Of a stretch of 64,000 nucleotides of DNA, positions 6,001 through 18,000 are shown in pieces. Position 1 is the stretch's first letter; each line of letters starts with the position of its first letter. Source of the stretch: Fimbriosthenelais zetlandica (Eukaryota); NCBI GenBank assembly GCA_977030845.1, contig OZ365111.1, forward strand, positions 48,112,001 through 48,176,000, written 5' to 3'. A program made the position numbers.

Positions 6001-9000
6001 TGCACATACAGACCCTTCAGCAAATTTTGTACATTTCAATGAAAACAACAAATGATATAGATATTATATAGGTGTGTGTATATATAGGTATACCTCAGTT
6101 TCCATCATGTGCTAAGGAGTTATATGAACATGGACCACCAAGACTTAGTTTCAAACACTTCAATGTTATTTCTAATGGGTTTCGCCAATAATTTATATTT
6201 GCCCGTCTAGGATTGTATCAACAAGTCTTGAGTTCAACCACATGGATAATGAAGACCATAGACATAACAATTCTGGATACAATATGAATTATATATGTGA
6301 ATATAAATATGCCAACTGAGTGCAATTTCCACCCAAGACCCTAGTATTGTTTCCTTTTTAAATAAGTCATGTATACACACGGTGTACGATGTAGATATGT
6401 TCACAATAAGGGCATGTGGAAAGTAGGCTGAAATGTAGGGTACGCACACAACAAGCCATCAAGACAAGAAGCTCCATGTCATTGTTCACTCCATGGGGCA
6501 TGGCTGTCTTCCAAATTACATCAAAACTACGTCAACCTATAGGCGACTGTAGCATCAAGTGTCGGTAATAATATCAAATTGTCAACTGTCTACCTCCCTC
6601 GAACATAGCTCGACAGGGGAGAACAATTGTGACCACATTCACCCAGCACACTACTACCCACAATTCAGACACATTTTTTTTCTCAGATTTTTGTCATATT
6701 TTTTTCGTTCTTTTTTTTAAGGTTTCCTCACACTCAAATCATGCAGTCACACATCATTAGCGACCTCTCTATATTCGGGTCAGTTGAAAGCAGTTACAAA
6801 AGAGGAAGAAAAGTTCATTTTCCCACATGCACACTTGGTATCTGTATCCTTTGTAAATCCACTAACACACACAGCACATACCATAAATATTACATAATAC
6901 ACTATATATAGATTCTTTCATATATGTATACAAATTCTGTACATAATAAGACAGTACTTATTTACAAATGGCAAACTTGATTCCCCCAATTCCTATATAT
7001 AGGATGCCTTCACAAACAGAGGGTTACCTCAGCGCGACACTCTTTCAGTATTATCACCAAGAAAGTGGCTGCAAAAAAGACAGCCAAGTGGTATATATAC
7101 TTCTATTATACACAAAGGGTTCTATGGTTGAAATTTGAAGTTACACATTCCTTCCATCAGTCTCTGAAGTAATTTCTCTCTTTCAGAAATAGCAGATTAT
7201 GTATATCAAAAACACCGGTCAACCAACAAGTATATCATAACTTTCAAATAAATATATTTATCATATATATATATTTCTGAGTATATATATATCTGTCCTT
7301 CTGAATCAATAATCATCTAAACAATTTTCCTTCCAATGTAAGTAAATTTTTCTTTTAAATTCCAAGGTAAAAGAGACAAACTGTCTAGGCATGTTGAAGC
7401 CAGGCCCTTGCAGAAAGTGAGTAACGATTTTGACTTTCAAGCCGCAATAACTTCGGATGCACTGATAGGTAAAGGTAGGAATTAACTTTTGGGACCTCAT
7501 CTGTGCCTTCAGATAATTTGATTGTTATTAACACCCAGGTCCGTACGTGGCCATTGAGTGAGAGCCAGCCTTCAACCCCCTGTTGTGAGGCTTCTTCATC
7601 AGTTCACCATTAATGTATGAGATTCCATGGGAGCCGCAGAATCGTACAGCGTGTCTGTATCTTGTGTGGGCTCACCTTGAAGTTGGCATTGGTTGCTCAG
7701 AGTCCCCGCCCCGCAATCACAGAAGAACCTGAAAACATGAAACATGCAAATTATTATCTCTCACATGGAAATGTTATCAGACCTACAAAATGAACAGAAT
7801 ATGAGTGTACGACAAAAACACCACAGTAATTTATTTCAAGTACACAATACCTAATCTCTGAAATTTTATCAAAATGAAATCACTGGAAACCAACGTTTAC
7901 AAACCTTCTACTTGGGGCAGATTATCTAAAATGTTATACAAGCCAAATAGGATTTTTTAAGGTGCCAAGCCTTGGAGGATTTAGCAAGGTTTAACCAATT
8001 TAAAGGATTAACAAAATAATTAAACTGTCAATTAGAAACTCACCTATCATGACGAATGAACTCTACTTCATGTCCCGCATGGCACGTTTTTATACAGTTG
8101 ACACATATGGCATTACGGTCTGTTGTGTTGCACGTCCGACACCGGTAGAAGTCGTGCATCGGGAAGCTGGTATAACTGGAGATTTTGTACAAACATTGCC
8201 CACTAGACACAGCTTTCTCCACCATGTTTTGATTGCCAAAGATTTTGTTATCTGCGAGAAGGAAAGGCGGGAGGAAAACATTAAAACATGTCAACAATCC
8301 AGGTGCAGAAGTAAATTGTATATGTATTTGTTCCGTATAATTCTGTCTCTTTTTTGACAAAAATCCTTTTTTTTAATGATAAATGAATGTGTAGCAAATA
8401 ATATATAGCCAAATTTTTTATTCTTTTGAGAAAATTCAAATAATTCACCTTTTAAGCTGGGTGTCACCCCACTTGCTAGACAGAGGCCTCCAAATTTATT
8501 GTTGAAGATTTTGTTGCCTTCTAGAGTTGCTGTTGCGTTGTTGGTGATCTCGATCCCGGCCGCTTGCCCGTCGTAGATACGATTCCTTTTTAAGGTGGGA
8601 TGAGACTGGGTGCTGATGAGAACACCCGCTTGTGCGTTCCTAAAGATGTCATTTTCTTCTAATAAACCTGCAAGAATAACATAATATTATGAAGACAGTT
8701 ATCTTATTGAATAGAATTTTTGACACTTGAACACAACTCAAAGACTTCTTGTAATTACCCAAATATGACATTTTCACAAACCAAAAGAAAAGTAATTTAC
8801 CTTTTCCGCCGTTGAAGATACAGATGCCGCCGTCGCGGCCATCGTGTATTTTGTTATGCCGTAGCTGTGGGTTGCTGTCTGTCTTGATCCATACACCAGC
8901 CATGGCATTGTCAAAGATTTCATTATGCTCGATGATGCCAAGTCCTCCATTGTACACCAGGATGCCCCCGTTCTGACCACCCCAGATCTTGTTCTTCTTA

Positions 9001-15000: not shown

Positions 15001-18000
15001 TGAGATTGCCCCGGAATTCCTCAATGACATGCCCCGACAGTGTTGTGATGGTGTCTGCGCTAATATACTCCTATTTATCGTGTGTATTCTCGGCAATAAC
15101 TCTTAATTTGATATAGAATAGTCGCCATGAACAATATATTTCACAGGAGCACCTTCTACCCACCCGAGAGATTGCAGGAACTTAGCGAAGAGCACAGGCA
15201 AATGCTAATTTCGGTACTGACCTAATAACCCAATAACTGAGACATGATAAAGGGGCATGCACCCCGAGTCCAGACAGAGGGAGACGGTGGGGTGGCCACG
15301 GCAGCTACGGGCTAAGCTAGGGGGTGAAACACCGGCCAAGTTGGGGTCCTATATATTTGACCTGTGTCTGTCTTTAGACTGTTTTATGGACCAATCTCAG
15401 CTCGTTTATTTGGGCCTTGTTTTAGGGACATGCCACCACTTGTTTTGAGGGGTGTGTCTCCCCTGAGACCCCCATGATCATAACATCTGATTACAGTGAT
15501 AGTGTCTTCATTAGGCGAGGCCTATTACTCCTGATTACATAAGTTGTCAGTCACAGCTAGTCTTCAGTAGATACAGTAGCTCAGCCAAAGACCAGAGATA
15601 TTTAAGGGCGTAGAGTGCGTGTGTATTGGATGGGTGGGAGGGGGGGGGGGGGGGGGGTCAACTATAAGTATACCGTAACAGTCTATTTGTAACATGGTAT
15701 CATACCTCATAGACATTATAGGCCTACTGACATAGAAATATTTCCATGAAATATATTGTAAAGGCCTAGCTATTTGCTAAAAGTTTTTAAAAAGTTCAAA
15801 AAACAAACTGAAATTTAGACTCCTCTCAAAGCTATAATTATACTTTTACAACCCTAAAAAATTATCAATATTTTCTTTTAGACTTTCCACTATGTGGATG
15901 AGCGAGGGGTTGGGTTCATCCGTCAAGAAGATCTAAAAGTTGCTGTTGTGTATTTATGTGGATATAAACCCTCCAAGGTATGACCTTTCTGAAATCAGTG
16001 ATGTGTTTCCAAATAAATTTGCGAATTTAAAATTGAAAAGTCCTACCCATAAAAAATCTACAAAAGTCATGCTTTCATTGCAGTATGAACTGAAAGAAAT
16101 GATTTCAAAATCAGCTGGAACTGACGAAATACCCTCTTCAGGTATATCACTGGAAAGATTCATACACATCATGAAGCCAAAGATGCAAGCCTTGGACGAG
16201 GACGATGAAATCAGGCAGACATTCCTTGCTTTGGATTCTAAATGTAAATTTGTTCATGCCAAAATAACGAATTACAAAATGGTATCTTTCCTATAAAACC
16301 TAATAAAGTTTATTTTATCTAAAGTTGTACCGGTAATAGACTTTAATTTGTTAACGTTTGATTTTCGGTGCGGGCTATGAGGGAAATTGAATCTAGGATA
16401 TACCGTACCCGTACCTATATTTCATTTTCACTACCGGTACCGTACTCGTAAGAAATGAAAGTCAGAAAGCATCTTTCAGTAACTCGGGCTAGGCTGTGAC
16501 CTCTGATACCACATTGATTGTGATTGTTTCTGTTTCAGGTCGTGGATTCATTTCCCTAGATGATTTAAAACTGGCCTTCAAGGAGATGGCCCCTAATCTA
16601 CCATTGTTTACTATAGAATCAGCTTTCAGGTGGGTCAGAATCATTTCTTGCTCTCCATTCCTGTCTTAGCGGTGTCTCAGAATATTATAAGGAAAATTGG
16701 AGGGATCCTACTCGAAGTCCATGTAATTAAATTATATTTCCTATTTTTTCTGCAGGGAAATTGACAGAGATGGCGACGGACGAGTCAGTTATAAGGACTT
16801 TGAGTTTATGATGAAATATAGCAAAGAAAATGGGTTTTGAAAGAAAAAGGCTAATAGGGATTTTCAAGTCACTACATCATGCATCAATTAAGACTCCTAT
16901 TACTGCACTACCAGCAGCCACGTAGGCATACTGTGATATTTTGTAAATATTGGACGGATGTACTGAGCGTTTTATTTTTGTAGACTACATATATTTAAAT
17001 TATTTAACTCTTCCTTGGAGCTTTGTACAAGGTGTGATAATAAATTGAAATAAATTAATCCTCAAAAACGAAGTTTTTTTTGTTTCTGTCGACTATATGA
17101 ATTAGAAAGAAAGAGAAAAAGACTAATGTTGTTTTAACTTTTATTTTTATTTTTGATACACTATTTATGTATGAAAAATCTCAACACAATACCTATGTGC
17201 GTCGAACGCACACACCTCTTTATAGGAAAGGCAATAAATAAATCCTCGTACATGACATTAACCTAAGGAGAGCAGGAGAGACAATGATACGAGGGGAAAG
17301 TCGAAGATAACAATTTCAAGTTCACTGTACTTTTTTTTTCTCATAAAATCGATCCCAAAATTACAAATGGTCTGAGAAAGAAAATTTGTTTTACTGAGCG
17401 TCTCTCTCAGGCTTTGTATAGAGATATCACTTTTAACATTTTCTACACGTTTTAATACATTCCCAGTTCAACTGAGAAATCCTTTCGCATCTTTCTCGCA
17501 ATTTTATATCTGAAAGCCTTAAAGATAGAAAGTTAAAATAAAACCCATCTCAATATATGCATATTGGGGCAATGTATGGACACGGTTATTCAGCAGTCTC
17601 CTATTTCCTTGTACAAATCTAAATTTTCTAAATTGGTCAACAAGCAAAATATTCCACTGTGATAACGCGTGCACTAACATCGAAGGATACTTATCCATTA
17701 AATTATTTTAAACTGGCTAAATGGTCGTGAAAATACAATTGACTTTCTTGAGCCCATTGACAGAATCGGAGAAGAGAGCTTAATGTTCACTATCACTATA
17801 AATTACCACTTCGTACGCGTCTAAGAATACACAGTATAAAGAATAGGATTAGTACGAAGGAAAATATGATGTCATGTCTGATGAGCTGATAGAAACGATG
17901 TATTATAGTGAGGAACCATAATATCTGCCACGGAAATAATAAATATGCTACTCCAGCAACACTCTAGTATCTGTTAATTTTGGGTTCATTCTTAATGCTA

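What the first reader, a model, noticed from the sequence alone, without database searches (positions are those of the whole stretch)
7599..16840. Head-to-head FBXO11-EFCAB11 pair may preserve the pre-duplication vertebrate locus
The two genes share an interval of about 305 bp here. From recall, human 2p16 runs KCNK12-MSH6-FBXO11-FOXN2 and 14q32 runs KCNK13-TDP1-EFCAB11-FOXN3. These are duplicated segments in which FBXO11 and EFCAB11 occupy the matching position next to the FOXN2/3 paralogue. Reciprocal loss after vertebrate genome duplication would split an ancestral FBXO11-EFCAB11 pair, which is what this invertebrate still shows (inference). A shared promoter could explain why the pair was retained.
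Basis: partly seen in the sequence, partly recalled or inferred. Interest (0 to 1): 0.68.

Follow-up and report, generated by a model that had tools for sequence, protein, structure and literature searches.

The report
Head-to-head FBXO11 and EFCAB11 genes
Two conserved animal genes, FBXO11 and EFCAB11, sit back to back only 305 bases apart in this worm-like invertebrate, which fits, but does not prove, the idea that they were already neighbours before vertebrate genomes doubled.

Summary
A complete FBXO11 gene lies on the minus strand (12 coding exons, ATG 14821, stop 7599-7601). A complete EFCAB11-family gene lies on the plus strand (5 coding exons, ATG 15127, stop 16838-16840). Their start codons are 305 bp apart (14822-15126). 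That interval has no TATA box and sits in the window's longest stretch of undepleted CpG. It also holds a 125-bp cluster of CCAAT, CACGTG, CCGGAA and GCCATATT motifs. It therefore looks like a shared bidirectional promoter, but no expression data were available.

The evolutionary reading is only partly supported. FBXO11 and EFCAB11 share one scaffold in the two other species where both could be looked up: Lingula anatina (1.13 Mb) and Gigantopelta aegis (120.6 Mb). Papers confirm kcnk13-tdp1-efcab11-foxn3 and KCNK12-MSH6-FBXO11 in vertebrates. However, the window holds no sign of FoxN, KCNK, TDP1 or MSH6. Its other genes are CoREST, PP1-beta and NOVA. No eukaryotic genome collection was on hand, so adjacency in amphioxus, echinoderms or cnidarians could not be tested.

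This is a tidy new example of a known kind of conserved gene pair, of modest interest.

The parts
14725..14821 (-). FBXO11 coding exon 1 (ATG 14821..14819; donor GT 14724-14723; ends in phase 1)
   Evidence: Read. Its N-terminus aligns from residue 1 with Owenia P0004, Lingula P0012, Tubulanus P0007 and unnamed P0005. P0001 carries the exon 1/exon 2 junction residues.
12916..13161 (-). FBXO11 coding exon 2 (low-complexity N-terminal region)
   Evidence: Splice sites read. P0001 residues 7-89 align at 89-92% identity.
11687..12282 (-). FBXO11 coding exon 3 (F-box)
   Evidence: Splice sites read. Pfam F-box-like 3.5e-18. 188 hits; the named ones listed are nearly all F-box only protein 11. 97% identity to P0001.
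10753..10872 (-). FBXO11 coding exon 4 (aligned part only)
   Evidence: P0001 residues 285-324, 92.5% identity.
10519..10626 (-). FBXO11 coding exon 5 (aligned part only)
   Evidence: P0001 residues 325-360, 100% identity. Weak Beta_helix match.
9953..10312 (-). FBXO11 coding exon 6 (beta-helix/CASH repeats; aligned part)
   Evidence: Beta_helix 4e-24. P0001 residues 360-479, 99% identity.
9753..9842 (-). FBXO11 coding exon 7 (aligned part)
   Evidence: P0001 residues 479-508, 100% identity.
9188..9493 (-). FBXO11 coding exon 8 (beta-helix; aligned part)
   Evidence: Beta_helix 5.4e-21. P0001 residues 508-609, 99% identity.
8793..9041 (-). FBXO11 coding exon 9 (beta-helix; aligned part)
   Evidence: Beta_helix 1.4e-16. 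P0001 residues 603-685, 93% identity.
8450..8668 (-). FBXO11 coding exon 10 (beta-helix; aligned part)
   Evidence: Beta_helix 2e-15. P0001 residues 683-755, 99% identity.
8043..8258 (-). FBXO11 coding exon 11 (UBR-type zinc finger; aligned part)
   Evidence: zf-UBR 2e-7. P0001 residues 754-825, 99% identity.
7599..7730 (-). FBXO11 last coding exon with stop codon 7599-7601
   Evidence: P0001 residues 825-867, 100% identity. ORF end.
14822..15126 (.). 305-bp interval between the two start codons; candidate bidirectional promoter
   Evidence: CpG observed/expected 0.97 against a window median of 0.48. Three CCAAT at 14896(-), 14941(+) and 14981(+), with 0.76 expected. Also CACGTG at 14965, CCGGAA at 15011 and GCCATATT at 14891. 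No TATAWA, with 1.35 expected. Function is inferred, not shown.
14200..15100 (.). CpG-undepleted block covering the 5' part of FBXO11 intron 1, exon 1 and most of the shared interval
   Evidence: Overlapping 300-bp windows starting 14201-14801 have CpG o/e 1.00-1.40. Window median is 0.48 and the 99th percentile is 1.14.
15127..15213 (+). EFCAB11 coding exon 1 (ATG 15127)
   Evidence: Read. An in-frame stop lies 5 codons upstream. Only a weak collinear match to Asterias P0126 residues 1-29 (34% identity, E 0.018 in a 16-protein set).
15882..15977 (+). EFCAB11 coding exon 2
   Evidence: 16 of 16 named EFCAB11 proteins match at 48-68% identity. Whole-library HMMER gave 3 hits at E<=0.001, of which 2 are EFCAB11-like. 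Family profile positions 29-60.
16084..16243 (+). EFCAB11 coding exon 3
   Evidence: 11 of 16 named EFCAB11 proteins match in register at 31-47% identity, best E 3.3e-11. Profile positions 59-110. Best EF-hand hit in the PDB is only 18 bits.
16539..16629 (+). EFCAB11 coding exon 4
   Evidence: 15 of 16 match at 36-55% identity. Profile positions 103-141.
16756..16840 (+). EFCAB11 coding exon 5 with stop codon 16838-16840 (canonical EF-hand loop)
   Evidence: 14 of 16 match at 40-81% identity. Pfam EF-hand_1 9.9e-6, at 25.2 bits against a cut-off of 25.4. Profile positions 137-164.

Best explanation
Shown: this spiralian genome carries one complete FBXO11 gene and one complete EFCAB11-family gene. 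They are transcribed away from each other, with start codons 305 bp apart.

Inferred, mechanism: the interval works as one bidirectional, TATA-less promoter of the housekeeping type. It is CpG-undepleted and carries CCAAT boxes, an E-box and an ETS-like core. Both genes therefore depend on the same short stretch of DNA. Any break between them would damage at least one promoter, and this holds the pair together.

Inferred, history: the linkage is old, at least lophotrochozoan and plausibly bilaterian. In the vertebrate stem the two rounds of genome duplication made spare copies of the pair. FBXO11 could then be lost from the copy that became the KCNK13-TDP1-EFCAB11-FOXN3 segment. EFCAB11 could be lost from the copy that became the KCNK12-MSH6-FBXO11-FOXN2 segment. 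No promoter had to be cut.
For: - Gene identities, orientation and the 305-bp gap.
- Promoter-like composition: the CpG o/e block of 1.0-1.4 over about 14200-15100 is the longest such block in the window.
- Motifs: three CCAAT (0.76 expected), one CACGTG (0.06), one CCGGAA (0.02), one GCCATNTT (0.08) and no TATAWA (1.35 expected). All matched motifs lie within 14891-15016.
- Gap size: 305 bp is far smaller than the other gaps between genes in the window. These are about 2 kb to CoREST, more than 12 kb between CoREST and PP1-beta, and about 6 kb between PP1-beta and NOVA.
- Linkage elsewhere: the FBXO11 and EFCAB11 entries of Lingula anatina (P0012, P0165) both report a single contig of 1,125,405 bp. 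Those of Gigantopelta aegis (P0061, P0129) both report 120,622,278 bp. These are 2 of the 2 species present in both lists.
- Vertebrate side: kcnk13a-tdp1-efcab11-foxn3; EPCAM-MSH2-KCNK12-MSH6-FBXO11; fbxo11 in the fshr/nrxn1/kcnk12 block of ray-finned fishes; MSH6(+)/FBXO11(-) convergent in four vertebrates.
- From recall only: the human strands are KCNK12(-) MSH6(+) FBXO11(-) FOXN2(+) and, flipped, KCNK13(-) TDP1(-) EFCAB11(+) FOXN3(+). These are exactly what an ancestral order TDP1(-) MSH6(+) FBXO11(-) EFCAB11(+) would leave after reciprocal loss.
- The other genes of the window are CoREST, PP1-beta and NOVA. By recall they have human counterparts on 14q32, 2p23 and 14q12, as expected for one ancestral linkage group.
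Against: - None of FoxN, KCNK, TDP1 or MSH6 was detected in the window. In total, 22 plus-strand ORFs of 50 aa or more in 1-7790 gave no MutS or any other significant Pfam domain. Ten further ORFs elsewhere gave none either. The wider vertebrate block is therefore not kept here. Only a sample of ORFs was scanned, so small exons could be missed.
For Gigantopelta the contig is a whole chromosome.
- No deuterostome invertebrate or cnidarian locus was examined, so a lophotrochozoan-only origin of the adjacency is not excluded.
- The motif cluster was found after looking, and the factor names attached to the motifs are recalled.
- No transcription start sites or expression data were available.
- The paralogy of 2p16 and 14q32, and the chromosome 14 strands, rest on recall.
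Confidence: 0.5

Rival explanations
1. The adjacency is lineage-specific. FBXO11 and EFCAB11 belonged to the same ancestral linkage group and lay in the same general region. They became direct head-to-head neighbours only within annelids or lophotrochozoans, through local rearrangement and intergenic shrinkage. The matching positions in human 2p16 and 14q32 then reflect loose ancestral linkage, not a split pair.
For: - The flanks differ completely from the vertebrate loci. CoREST lies beyond EFCAB11, and no MSH6-like ORF lies beyond FBXO11.
- The only outside evidence is a shared scaffold in two other lophotrochozoans. This says nothing about deuterostomes or cnidarians.
Against: - Two named genes that sit within a two-gene interval of matching anchors in vertebrates are exact neighbours in a distant phylum. 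That is hard to reach by chance among many thousands of genes.
- The recalled vertebrate strand orientations fit a head-to-head ancestor.
- Sharing a 1.13-Mb scaffold in Lingula has a chance of roughly 0.3%, if the assembly is about 0.4 Gb (size recalled).
Confidence: 0.3
2. The two genes are neighbours without functional coupling. Two independent compact promoters happen to lie back to back in a gene-dense spot. The pair is kept, where it is kept, by neutral inertia rather than by a shared promoter.
For: - No expression or start-site data were available.
- The motifs are short and were picked after inspection.
- CpG-undepleted windows also occur at other gene starts in the window: 48401-48700, 55001-55400 and 29201-29500. 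The composition therefore marks promoters in general, not sharing.
Against: - Both 5' untranslated regions and both core promoters must fit within 305 bp, or else the transcripts overlap.
- The motif cluster spans only 125 bp in the middle of the interval, leaving little room for two insulated promoters.
Confidence: 0.2

Closest known systems
Vertebrate TDP1-EFCAB11 neighbours at human 14q32 (kcnk13-tdp1-efcab11-foxn3 block)
   Same: EFCAB11 sits next to a housekeeping-type gene. By recall, it does so head to head with a very short gap. The block order is confirmed for zebrafish, human and mouse (passages).
   Different: The partner is TDP1, not FBXO11. No TDP1-like ORF was seen in this window. 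The head-to-head orientation in human is recalled and was not found in print (listing only).
Vertebrate MSH6/FBXO11 convergent sense-antisense pair
   Same: FBXO11 is locked to a neighbour by overlapping or shared sequence, and the pair is conserved in human, mouse, rat and chicken (passages).
   Different: That constraint is at the 3' end (tail to tail). Here the constraint is at the 5' end. No MutS-like ORF lies within 7.6 kb of the FBXO11 stop codon.
Mammalian bidirectional promoters (divergent gene pairs less than 1 kb apart)
   Same: Divergent orientation, a gap under 1 kb, no TATA box, undepleted CpG, and CCAAT, E-box, ETS-like and YY1-like motifs. The list of motifs typical of such promoters is recalled.
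   Different: The host is a spiralian. Start sites, co-expression and factor binding are all untested.
Reciprocal gene loss between duplicated segments after whole-genome duplication
   Same: Two single-copy genes occupy matching slots between ohnologue anchors (KCNK12/13 and FOXN2/3) on two paralogous segments. An unduplicated outgroup has them together.
   Different: Only one outgroup locus, this window, has been read. The paralogy of the two human segments is recalled, and no paper stating it was found.

Membership tests
FBXO11 (F-box only protein 11) | N-terminal F-box | tested here: met
   PF12937 F-box-like 3.5e-18 and PF00646 6e-10 on window:11678-12442:-.
FBXO11 (F-box only protein 11) | Central right-handed beta-helix (CASH) repeats | tested here: met
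   PF13229 Beta_helix is above cut-off in four exon ORFs (85.5, 75.3, 60.9 and 57.2 bits) and weak in two more.
FBXO11 (F-box only protein 11) | C-terminal UBR-type zinc finger | tested here: met
   PF02207 zf-UBR 2e-7, 31.4 bits against a cut-off of 25.2.
FBXO11 (F-box only protein 11) | Full-length collinearity with proteins named FBXO11 | tested here: met
   The F-box exon gave 188 hits, with 120 listed. The named ones are nearly all 'F-box only protein 11'; Ridgeia is at 74% and Owenia at 72%. Unnamed P0001 aligns over residues 7-867. The N-terminus matches four relatives.
EFCAB11 (EF-hand calcium-binding domain-containing protein 11) | EF-hand domain | tested here: inconclusive
   Taken exon by exon, only exon 5 reaches Pfam EF-hand_1, at 25.2 bits against a cut-off of 25.4. 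Full-length relatives P0129 and P0131 score well above cut-off. The joined model was not scanned.
EFCAB11 (EF-hand calcium-binding domain-containing protein 11) | Collinear similarity to named EFCAB11 proteins over the whole length, beyond the generic EF-hand loops | tested here: met
   Exons 2-5 match Asterias P0126 at residues 31-61, 62-108, 111-139 and 141-167 of 167. They tile alignment A1. The family profile hits only these four ORFs of 2819.
EFCAB11 (EF-hand calcium-binding domain-containing protein 11) | Closer to EFCAB11 than to any other EF-hand family | tested here: inconclusive
   - Whole-library search with exon 2: 2 of 3 hits are EFCAB11-like and the third is a spurious zinc-finger protein.
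- Exon 3 scores 36-44 bits against six invertebrate EFCAB11 proteins (22-34 bits against five vertebrate ones), but at most 18 bits against calmodulin or centrin in the PDB.
- Among 43 relatives of P0121, 22 are named EFCAB11, 7 carry generic names and 14 are unnamed. None is named for another family.
- No outgroup-rooted tree was made.
Bidirectional promoter pair | Divergent genes with start sites less than 1 kb apart | tested here: inconclusive
   Start codons are 305 bp apart on opposite strands. Transcription start sites are unknown.
Bidirectional promoter pair | Co-regulated transcription from the shared interval | not testable with these tools
   No expression data or reporter assay was available.
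Ancient conserved microsyntenic pair | Direct adjacency in several distant phyla | tested here: inconclusive
   Adjacent here. Adjacency there, and any data for deuterostome invertebrates or cnidarians, could not be obtained.
Reciprocal ohnologue-segment loss after vertebrate genome duplication | The two genes lie in matching slots of paralogous segments and are together in an unduplicated outgroup | tested here: inconclusive
   The vertebrate orders are partly confirmed in papers. The segment paralogy and the chromosome 14 strands are recalled. Outgroup adjacency is shown only for this window.

The most novel reading that the evidence does not exclude
FBXO11-EFCAB11 is an ancestral bilaterian bidirectional unit, held together for over half a billion years by a shared 300-bp promoter. 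Vertebrate genome duplication was the only route by which it came apart: each daughter segment kept the promoter and lost one gene. On one segment the orphaned EFCAB11 promoter face was then taken over by TDP1. This would be a clean natural example of genome duplication releasing a cis-regulatory constraint on gene order.
Probability: 0.4. Interest if true: 0.45.

Novelty: new member of a known kind. Interest (0 to 1): 0.3.

Why it matters
If the adjacency proves ancestral, the pair gives a small, well-defined case of two effects. A shared promoter freezes gene order, and whole-genome duplication followed by reciprocal loss unfreezes it. It would also add an anchor for reconstructing the pre-duplication form of the human 2p16 and 14q32 segments. 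It would give a first regulatory clue for EFCAB11 as well. That gene appears in only 80 papers of the searched library, and in none of the 15 listed titles. None of this overturns current views. Conserved divergent pairs and reciprocal loss are both well known.

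Tried and rejected
- Word-index search with EFCAB11 exon 3 for longer proteins found nothing.
It was not re-sent there.
- The ESM Atlas gave only generic EF-hand clusters for exon 3. For the ORF at 2179-2676 it gave only weak, low-recognition leads.
- Of the three whole-library hits to exon 2, P0122 is a C2H2 zinc-finger protein and was discarded as a chance match. P0123 is unnamed and looks vertebrate. It was seen once and not used again.
- The cluster look-up for names could not be made because the database is switched off.
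- Rfam (0 matches), the tRNA scan (0) and the repeat search in 13100-16000 (only short chance pairs) showed nothing functional in the interval or introns.
- CCAATCA is not enriched window-wide (13 found, 14.5 expected). Only its local pairing is notable.
- Pfam scans found no MutS, forkhead, K-channel or TDP domain. They covered 22 plus-strand ORFs downstream of FBXO11, 10 ORFs elsewhere, and 5 further ORFs without a known gene.
- Six literature searches found no statement of an FBXO11-EFCAB11 linkage, nor a paper setting out the 2p16/14q32 paralogy. They were EFCAB11+FBXO11, EFCAB11+synteny, FBXO11+microsynteny, EFCAB11/bidirectional/TDP1, KCNK12/KCNK13/FOXN2/FOXN3/ohnolog and FOXN2/FOXN3/paralogon.
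- No structure prediction or complex prediction was run, since no claim here depends on one.

Full report
**What is in the sequence**

The window has 39% G+C and holds one run of N at 50126-50362. That run was left untouched.

On the minus strand between 14821 and 7599 lies a complete FBXO11 gene. Pfam finds an F-box (F-box-like 3.5e-18), right-handed beta-helix repeats (best 4e-24; four exon ORFs above cut-off) and a UBR-type zinc finger (2e-7), in that order.

A search with the F-box exon alone (window:11687-12280:-) gave 188 proteins at E<=0.001 among 687 candidates, of which the best 120 were listed. Those with informative names are almost all called F-box only protein 11. The best hit, unnamed P0001 (867 aa), is 97% identical on that exon. 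It aligns collinearly from residue 7 to 867 over 13165..7602, in twelve ungapped pieces of 89-100% identity.

I read exon 1 as 14821..14725. It aligns from residue 1 with the N-termini of the Owenia, Lingula and Tubulanus proteins and of unnamed P0005. P0001 carries the residues expected across the exon 1/exon 2 junction.

**The small gene**

On the plus strand I read five coding exons with canonical splice sites: 15127-15213, 15882-15977, 16084-16243, 16539-16629 and 16756-16840.

I did so, and left out any search, fold or tree with the joined model.

- Pfam recognises only exon 5, as EF-hand_1 at 25.2 bits, just under the 25.4 cut-off.
- A whole-library HMMER search with exon 2 (32 aa) against 1,835,955,588 proteins gave 3 hits at E<=0.001.
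  - P0121 proved to be a Ciona savignyi protein. It has 43 relatives: 22 named EFCAB11 or EFCAB11-like, 7 with generic names and 14 unnamed. None is named for another EF-hand family.
  - P0123 is unnamed and looks vertebrate. It was set aside.
  - P0122 is a C2H2 zinc-finger protein, a chance match.
- Against 16 named EFCAB11 proteins:
  - exon 2 matches 16 of 16, at 48-68% identity;
  - exon 3 matches 11 of 16 in register, at 31-47%;
  - exon 4 matches 15 of 16, at 36-55%;
  - exon 5 matches 14 of 16, at 40-81%;
  - exon 1 matches only weakly.
- The matches are collinear. On Asterias P0126 they fall at residues 1-29, 31-61, 62-108, 111-139 and 141-167 of 167.
- In an alignment with ten full-length relatives, exons 2-5 tile the family without overlap.
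- A profile of 14 named members hits only these four ORFs among 2819 ORFs of the window. The next best has E = 0.49.
- The nearest solved relatives of an EFCAB11 protein are calmodulin and centrin, at about 60-67 bits. Exon 3 of the window reaches at most 18 bits against them.

I therefore accept the gene as a member of the EFCAB11 family. A rooted phylogeny was not made, so strict orthology remains formally open.

**The interval**

The two ATG codons are the first in their ORFs. Stops lie 5 and 14 codons upstream.

CpG observed/expected is 0.97 in the interval. It is 1.00-1.40 in every 300-bp window from about 14200 to 15100. The window median is 0.48 and the 99th percentile is 1.14. This is the longest such block in the 64 kb.

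Within 14891-15016 lie:

- three CCAAT (0.76 expected from the window-wide rate);
- a palindromic CACGTG (0.06 expected);
- CCGGAA (0.02 expected);
- GCCATATT (0.08 expected);
- no TATAWA anywhere in the interval (1.35 expected).

By recall, these are the motif types enriched in mammalian bidirectional promoters. The motifs were chosen after looking, so the counts describe the sequence and do not test anything. CCAATCA is not enriched across the window. Rfam and tRNA scans found nothing.

**Who is the host and what lies around**

On the F-box exon, the window groups with P0001 (support 99). Its nearest named relatives are the annelids Ridgeia and Owenia and the nemertean Tubulanus. It falls outside the mollusc-plus-brachiopod clade (96) and the ecdysozoan clade (97). 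The host is a spiralian, probably an annelid, but the phylum is not settled.

The rest of the window holds three more genes:

- A CoREST/RCOR gene on the minus strand, about 18.9-28.8 kb. It has a SANT exon and matches REST corepressor 3 and 1 at 4.7e-28 and below.
- A PP1 catalytic subunit, closest to PP1-beta, on the minus strand at about 43.9-48.6 kb.
- A NOVA-type KH protein on the plus strand, from about 54.5 kb to at least 58.8 kb.

No forkhead, two-pore potassium channel, TDP1 or MutS domain was found in the ORFs scanned. These comprised 22 plus-strand ORFs of 50 aa or more between 1 and 7790, ten ORFs elsewhere, and five further ORFs that carry no known gene. Only a sample of ORFs could be scanned, so short exons could have been missed.

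**The evolutionary claim**

From papers I saw only passages.

- A TDP1 study states that zebrafish tdp1 is flanked by kcnk13a on one side and by efcab11 and foxn3 on the other, as in human chromosome 14 and mouse chromosome 12.
- A cattle study lists EPCAM, MSH2, KCNK12, MSH6 and FBXO11 in one 0.7-Mb window.
- A fish study places fbxo11 in the fshr/nrxn1/kcnk12 block.
- An antisense survey lists MSH6 (plus strand) and FBXO11 (minus strand) as a convergent overlapping pair in human, mouse, rat and chicken.

Three points are from my recall, and no paper I could search states them: that FOXN2/FOXN3 and KCNK12/KCNK13 are duplicates from the vertebrate genome doublings; the strands on chromosome 14; and the chromosome positions of human RCOR1, PPP1CB and NOVA1.

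With the recalled strands, an ancestral order TDP1(-) MSH6(+) FBXO11(-) EFCAB11(+), between KCNK(-) and FOXN(+), would yield both human segments by reciprocal loss. That order contains exactly the head-to-head pair seen here. This consistency check could have failed and did not.

**New evidence from outside the window**

The two hit tables give the length of the contig on which each protein was seen. Only two species occur in both tables. In both, the two genes report the same single contig length: Lingula anatina at 1,125,405 bp (P0012, P0165) and Gigantopelta aegis at 120,622,278 bp (P0061, P0129).

For Lingula this is unlikely by chance, roughly 0.3% if the assembly is about 0.4 Gb (size recalled). 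For Gigantopelta it shows only the same chromosome. Neither case shows adjacency.

**What stayed unchecked**

The survey of microsynteny that would decide the matter could therefore not be run.
- The cluster look-up for names could not be made.
By recall, the pair lists of published metazoan microsynteny surveys sit in supplements and may already contain this pair.
- Within the searchable full texts, the only paper holding both gene names is unrelated. Searches combining either name with synteny, microsynteny or bidirectional found nothing relevant.

**Verdict**

The mechanism, a shared bidirectional promoter, is plausible from composition but untested. The history, an ancestral pair split by reciprocal loss, is coherent and somewhat strengthened, but rests on one fully read locus plus two same-scaffold cases, all lophotrochozoan. 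It is a new example of known phenomena and of modest interest.

Noticed in passing
window 14509-14516 and 14540-14547: The palindrome TATCGATA occurs at two sites 31 bp apart in FBXO11 intron 1, inside the CpG-rich block. These are the only two sites in the 64 kb. By recall this is the insect DRE motif; its meaning here is unknown.
   Followed up: no
window 2179-2676 (+): A 165-codon open frame beyond the 3' end of FBXO11 has no Pfam match. The Atlas gave only weak, low-recognition leads, such as Receptor L domain at 0.82-0.83. It is not MutS-like.
   Followed up: partly
window 252-539 (-), 1429-1812 (both strands): Related ORF-like sequences occur in opposite orientations with 28-bp and 77-bp tandem units. 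This looks like copies of a small repeated element. No Pfam match.
   Followed up: no
window 18900-28830 (-): A CoREST/RCOR gene lies tail to tail with EFCAB11. SANT exon at 19435-19746, an ELM2-like start near 28400-28470 and an N-terminal exon near 28630-28826. A C-rich, proline-coding-like low-complexity stretch at 25160-25500 lies in an intron.
   Followed up: partly
window 43955-48600 (-) and 54500-58850 (+): A PP1-beta-like gene and a NOVA-like KH gene are also divergent, about 6 kb apart. CpG-undepleted windows lie at 48401-48700, 50401-50900 and 55001-55400. The N run lies between them.
   Followed up: partly
window 32368-34307, 35433-35628, 41473-43089: Large tandem arrays fill much of the CoREST-PP1 gap: 56-bp and 255-bp units, a 21-bp unit, and 21-bp units nested in a 346-bp unit. 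They create long spurious open frames.
   Followed up: no
window 58078-58151: The large NOVA-like exon encodes a run of about 20 glycines from GGN repeats.
   Followed up: no
window 15639-15657: A run of about 19 G lies in EFCAB11 intron 1.
   Followed up: no
protein P0002 (Centruroides sculpturatus, 1395 aa): This 'F-box only protein 11-like' model also carries secretin-type receptor domains (7tm_2, HRM). It is probably two neighbouring genes fused by annotation.
   Followed up: no
hit list: No arthropod or nematode appears among the 43 EFCAB11 relatives, while arthropods dominate the FBXO11 list. EFCAB11 may be missing from ecdysozoans, which would make them uninformative for the synteny survey. 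The search is word-limited, so absence is not shown.
   Followed up: no
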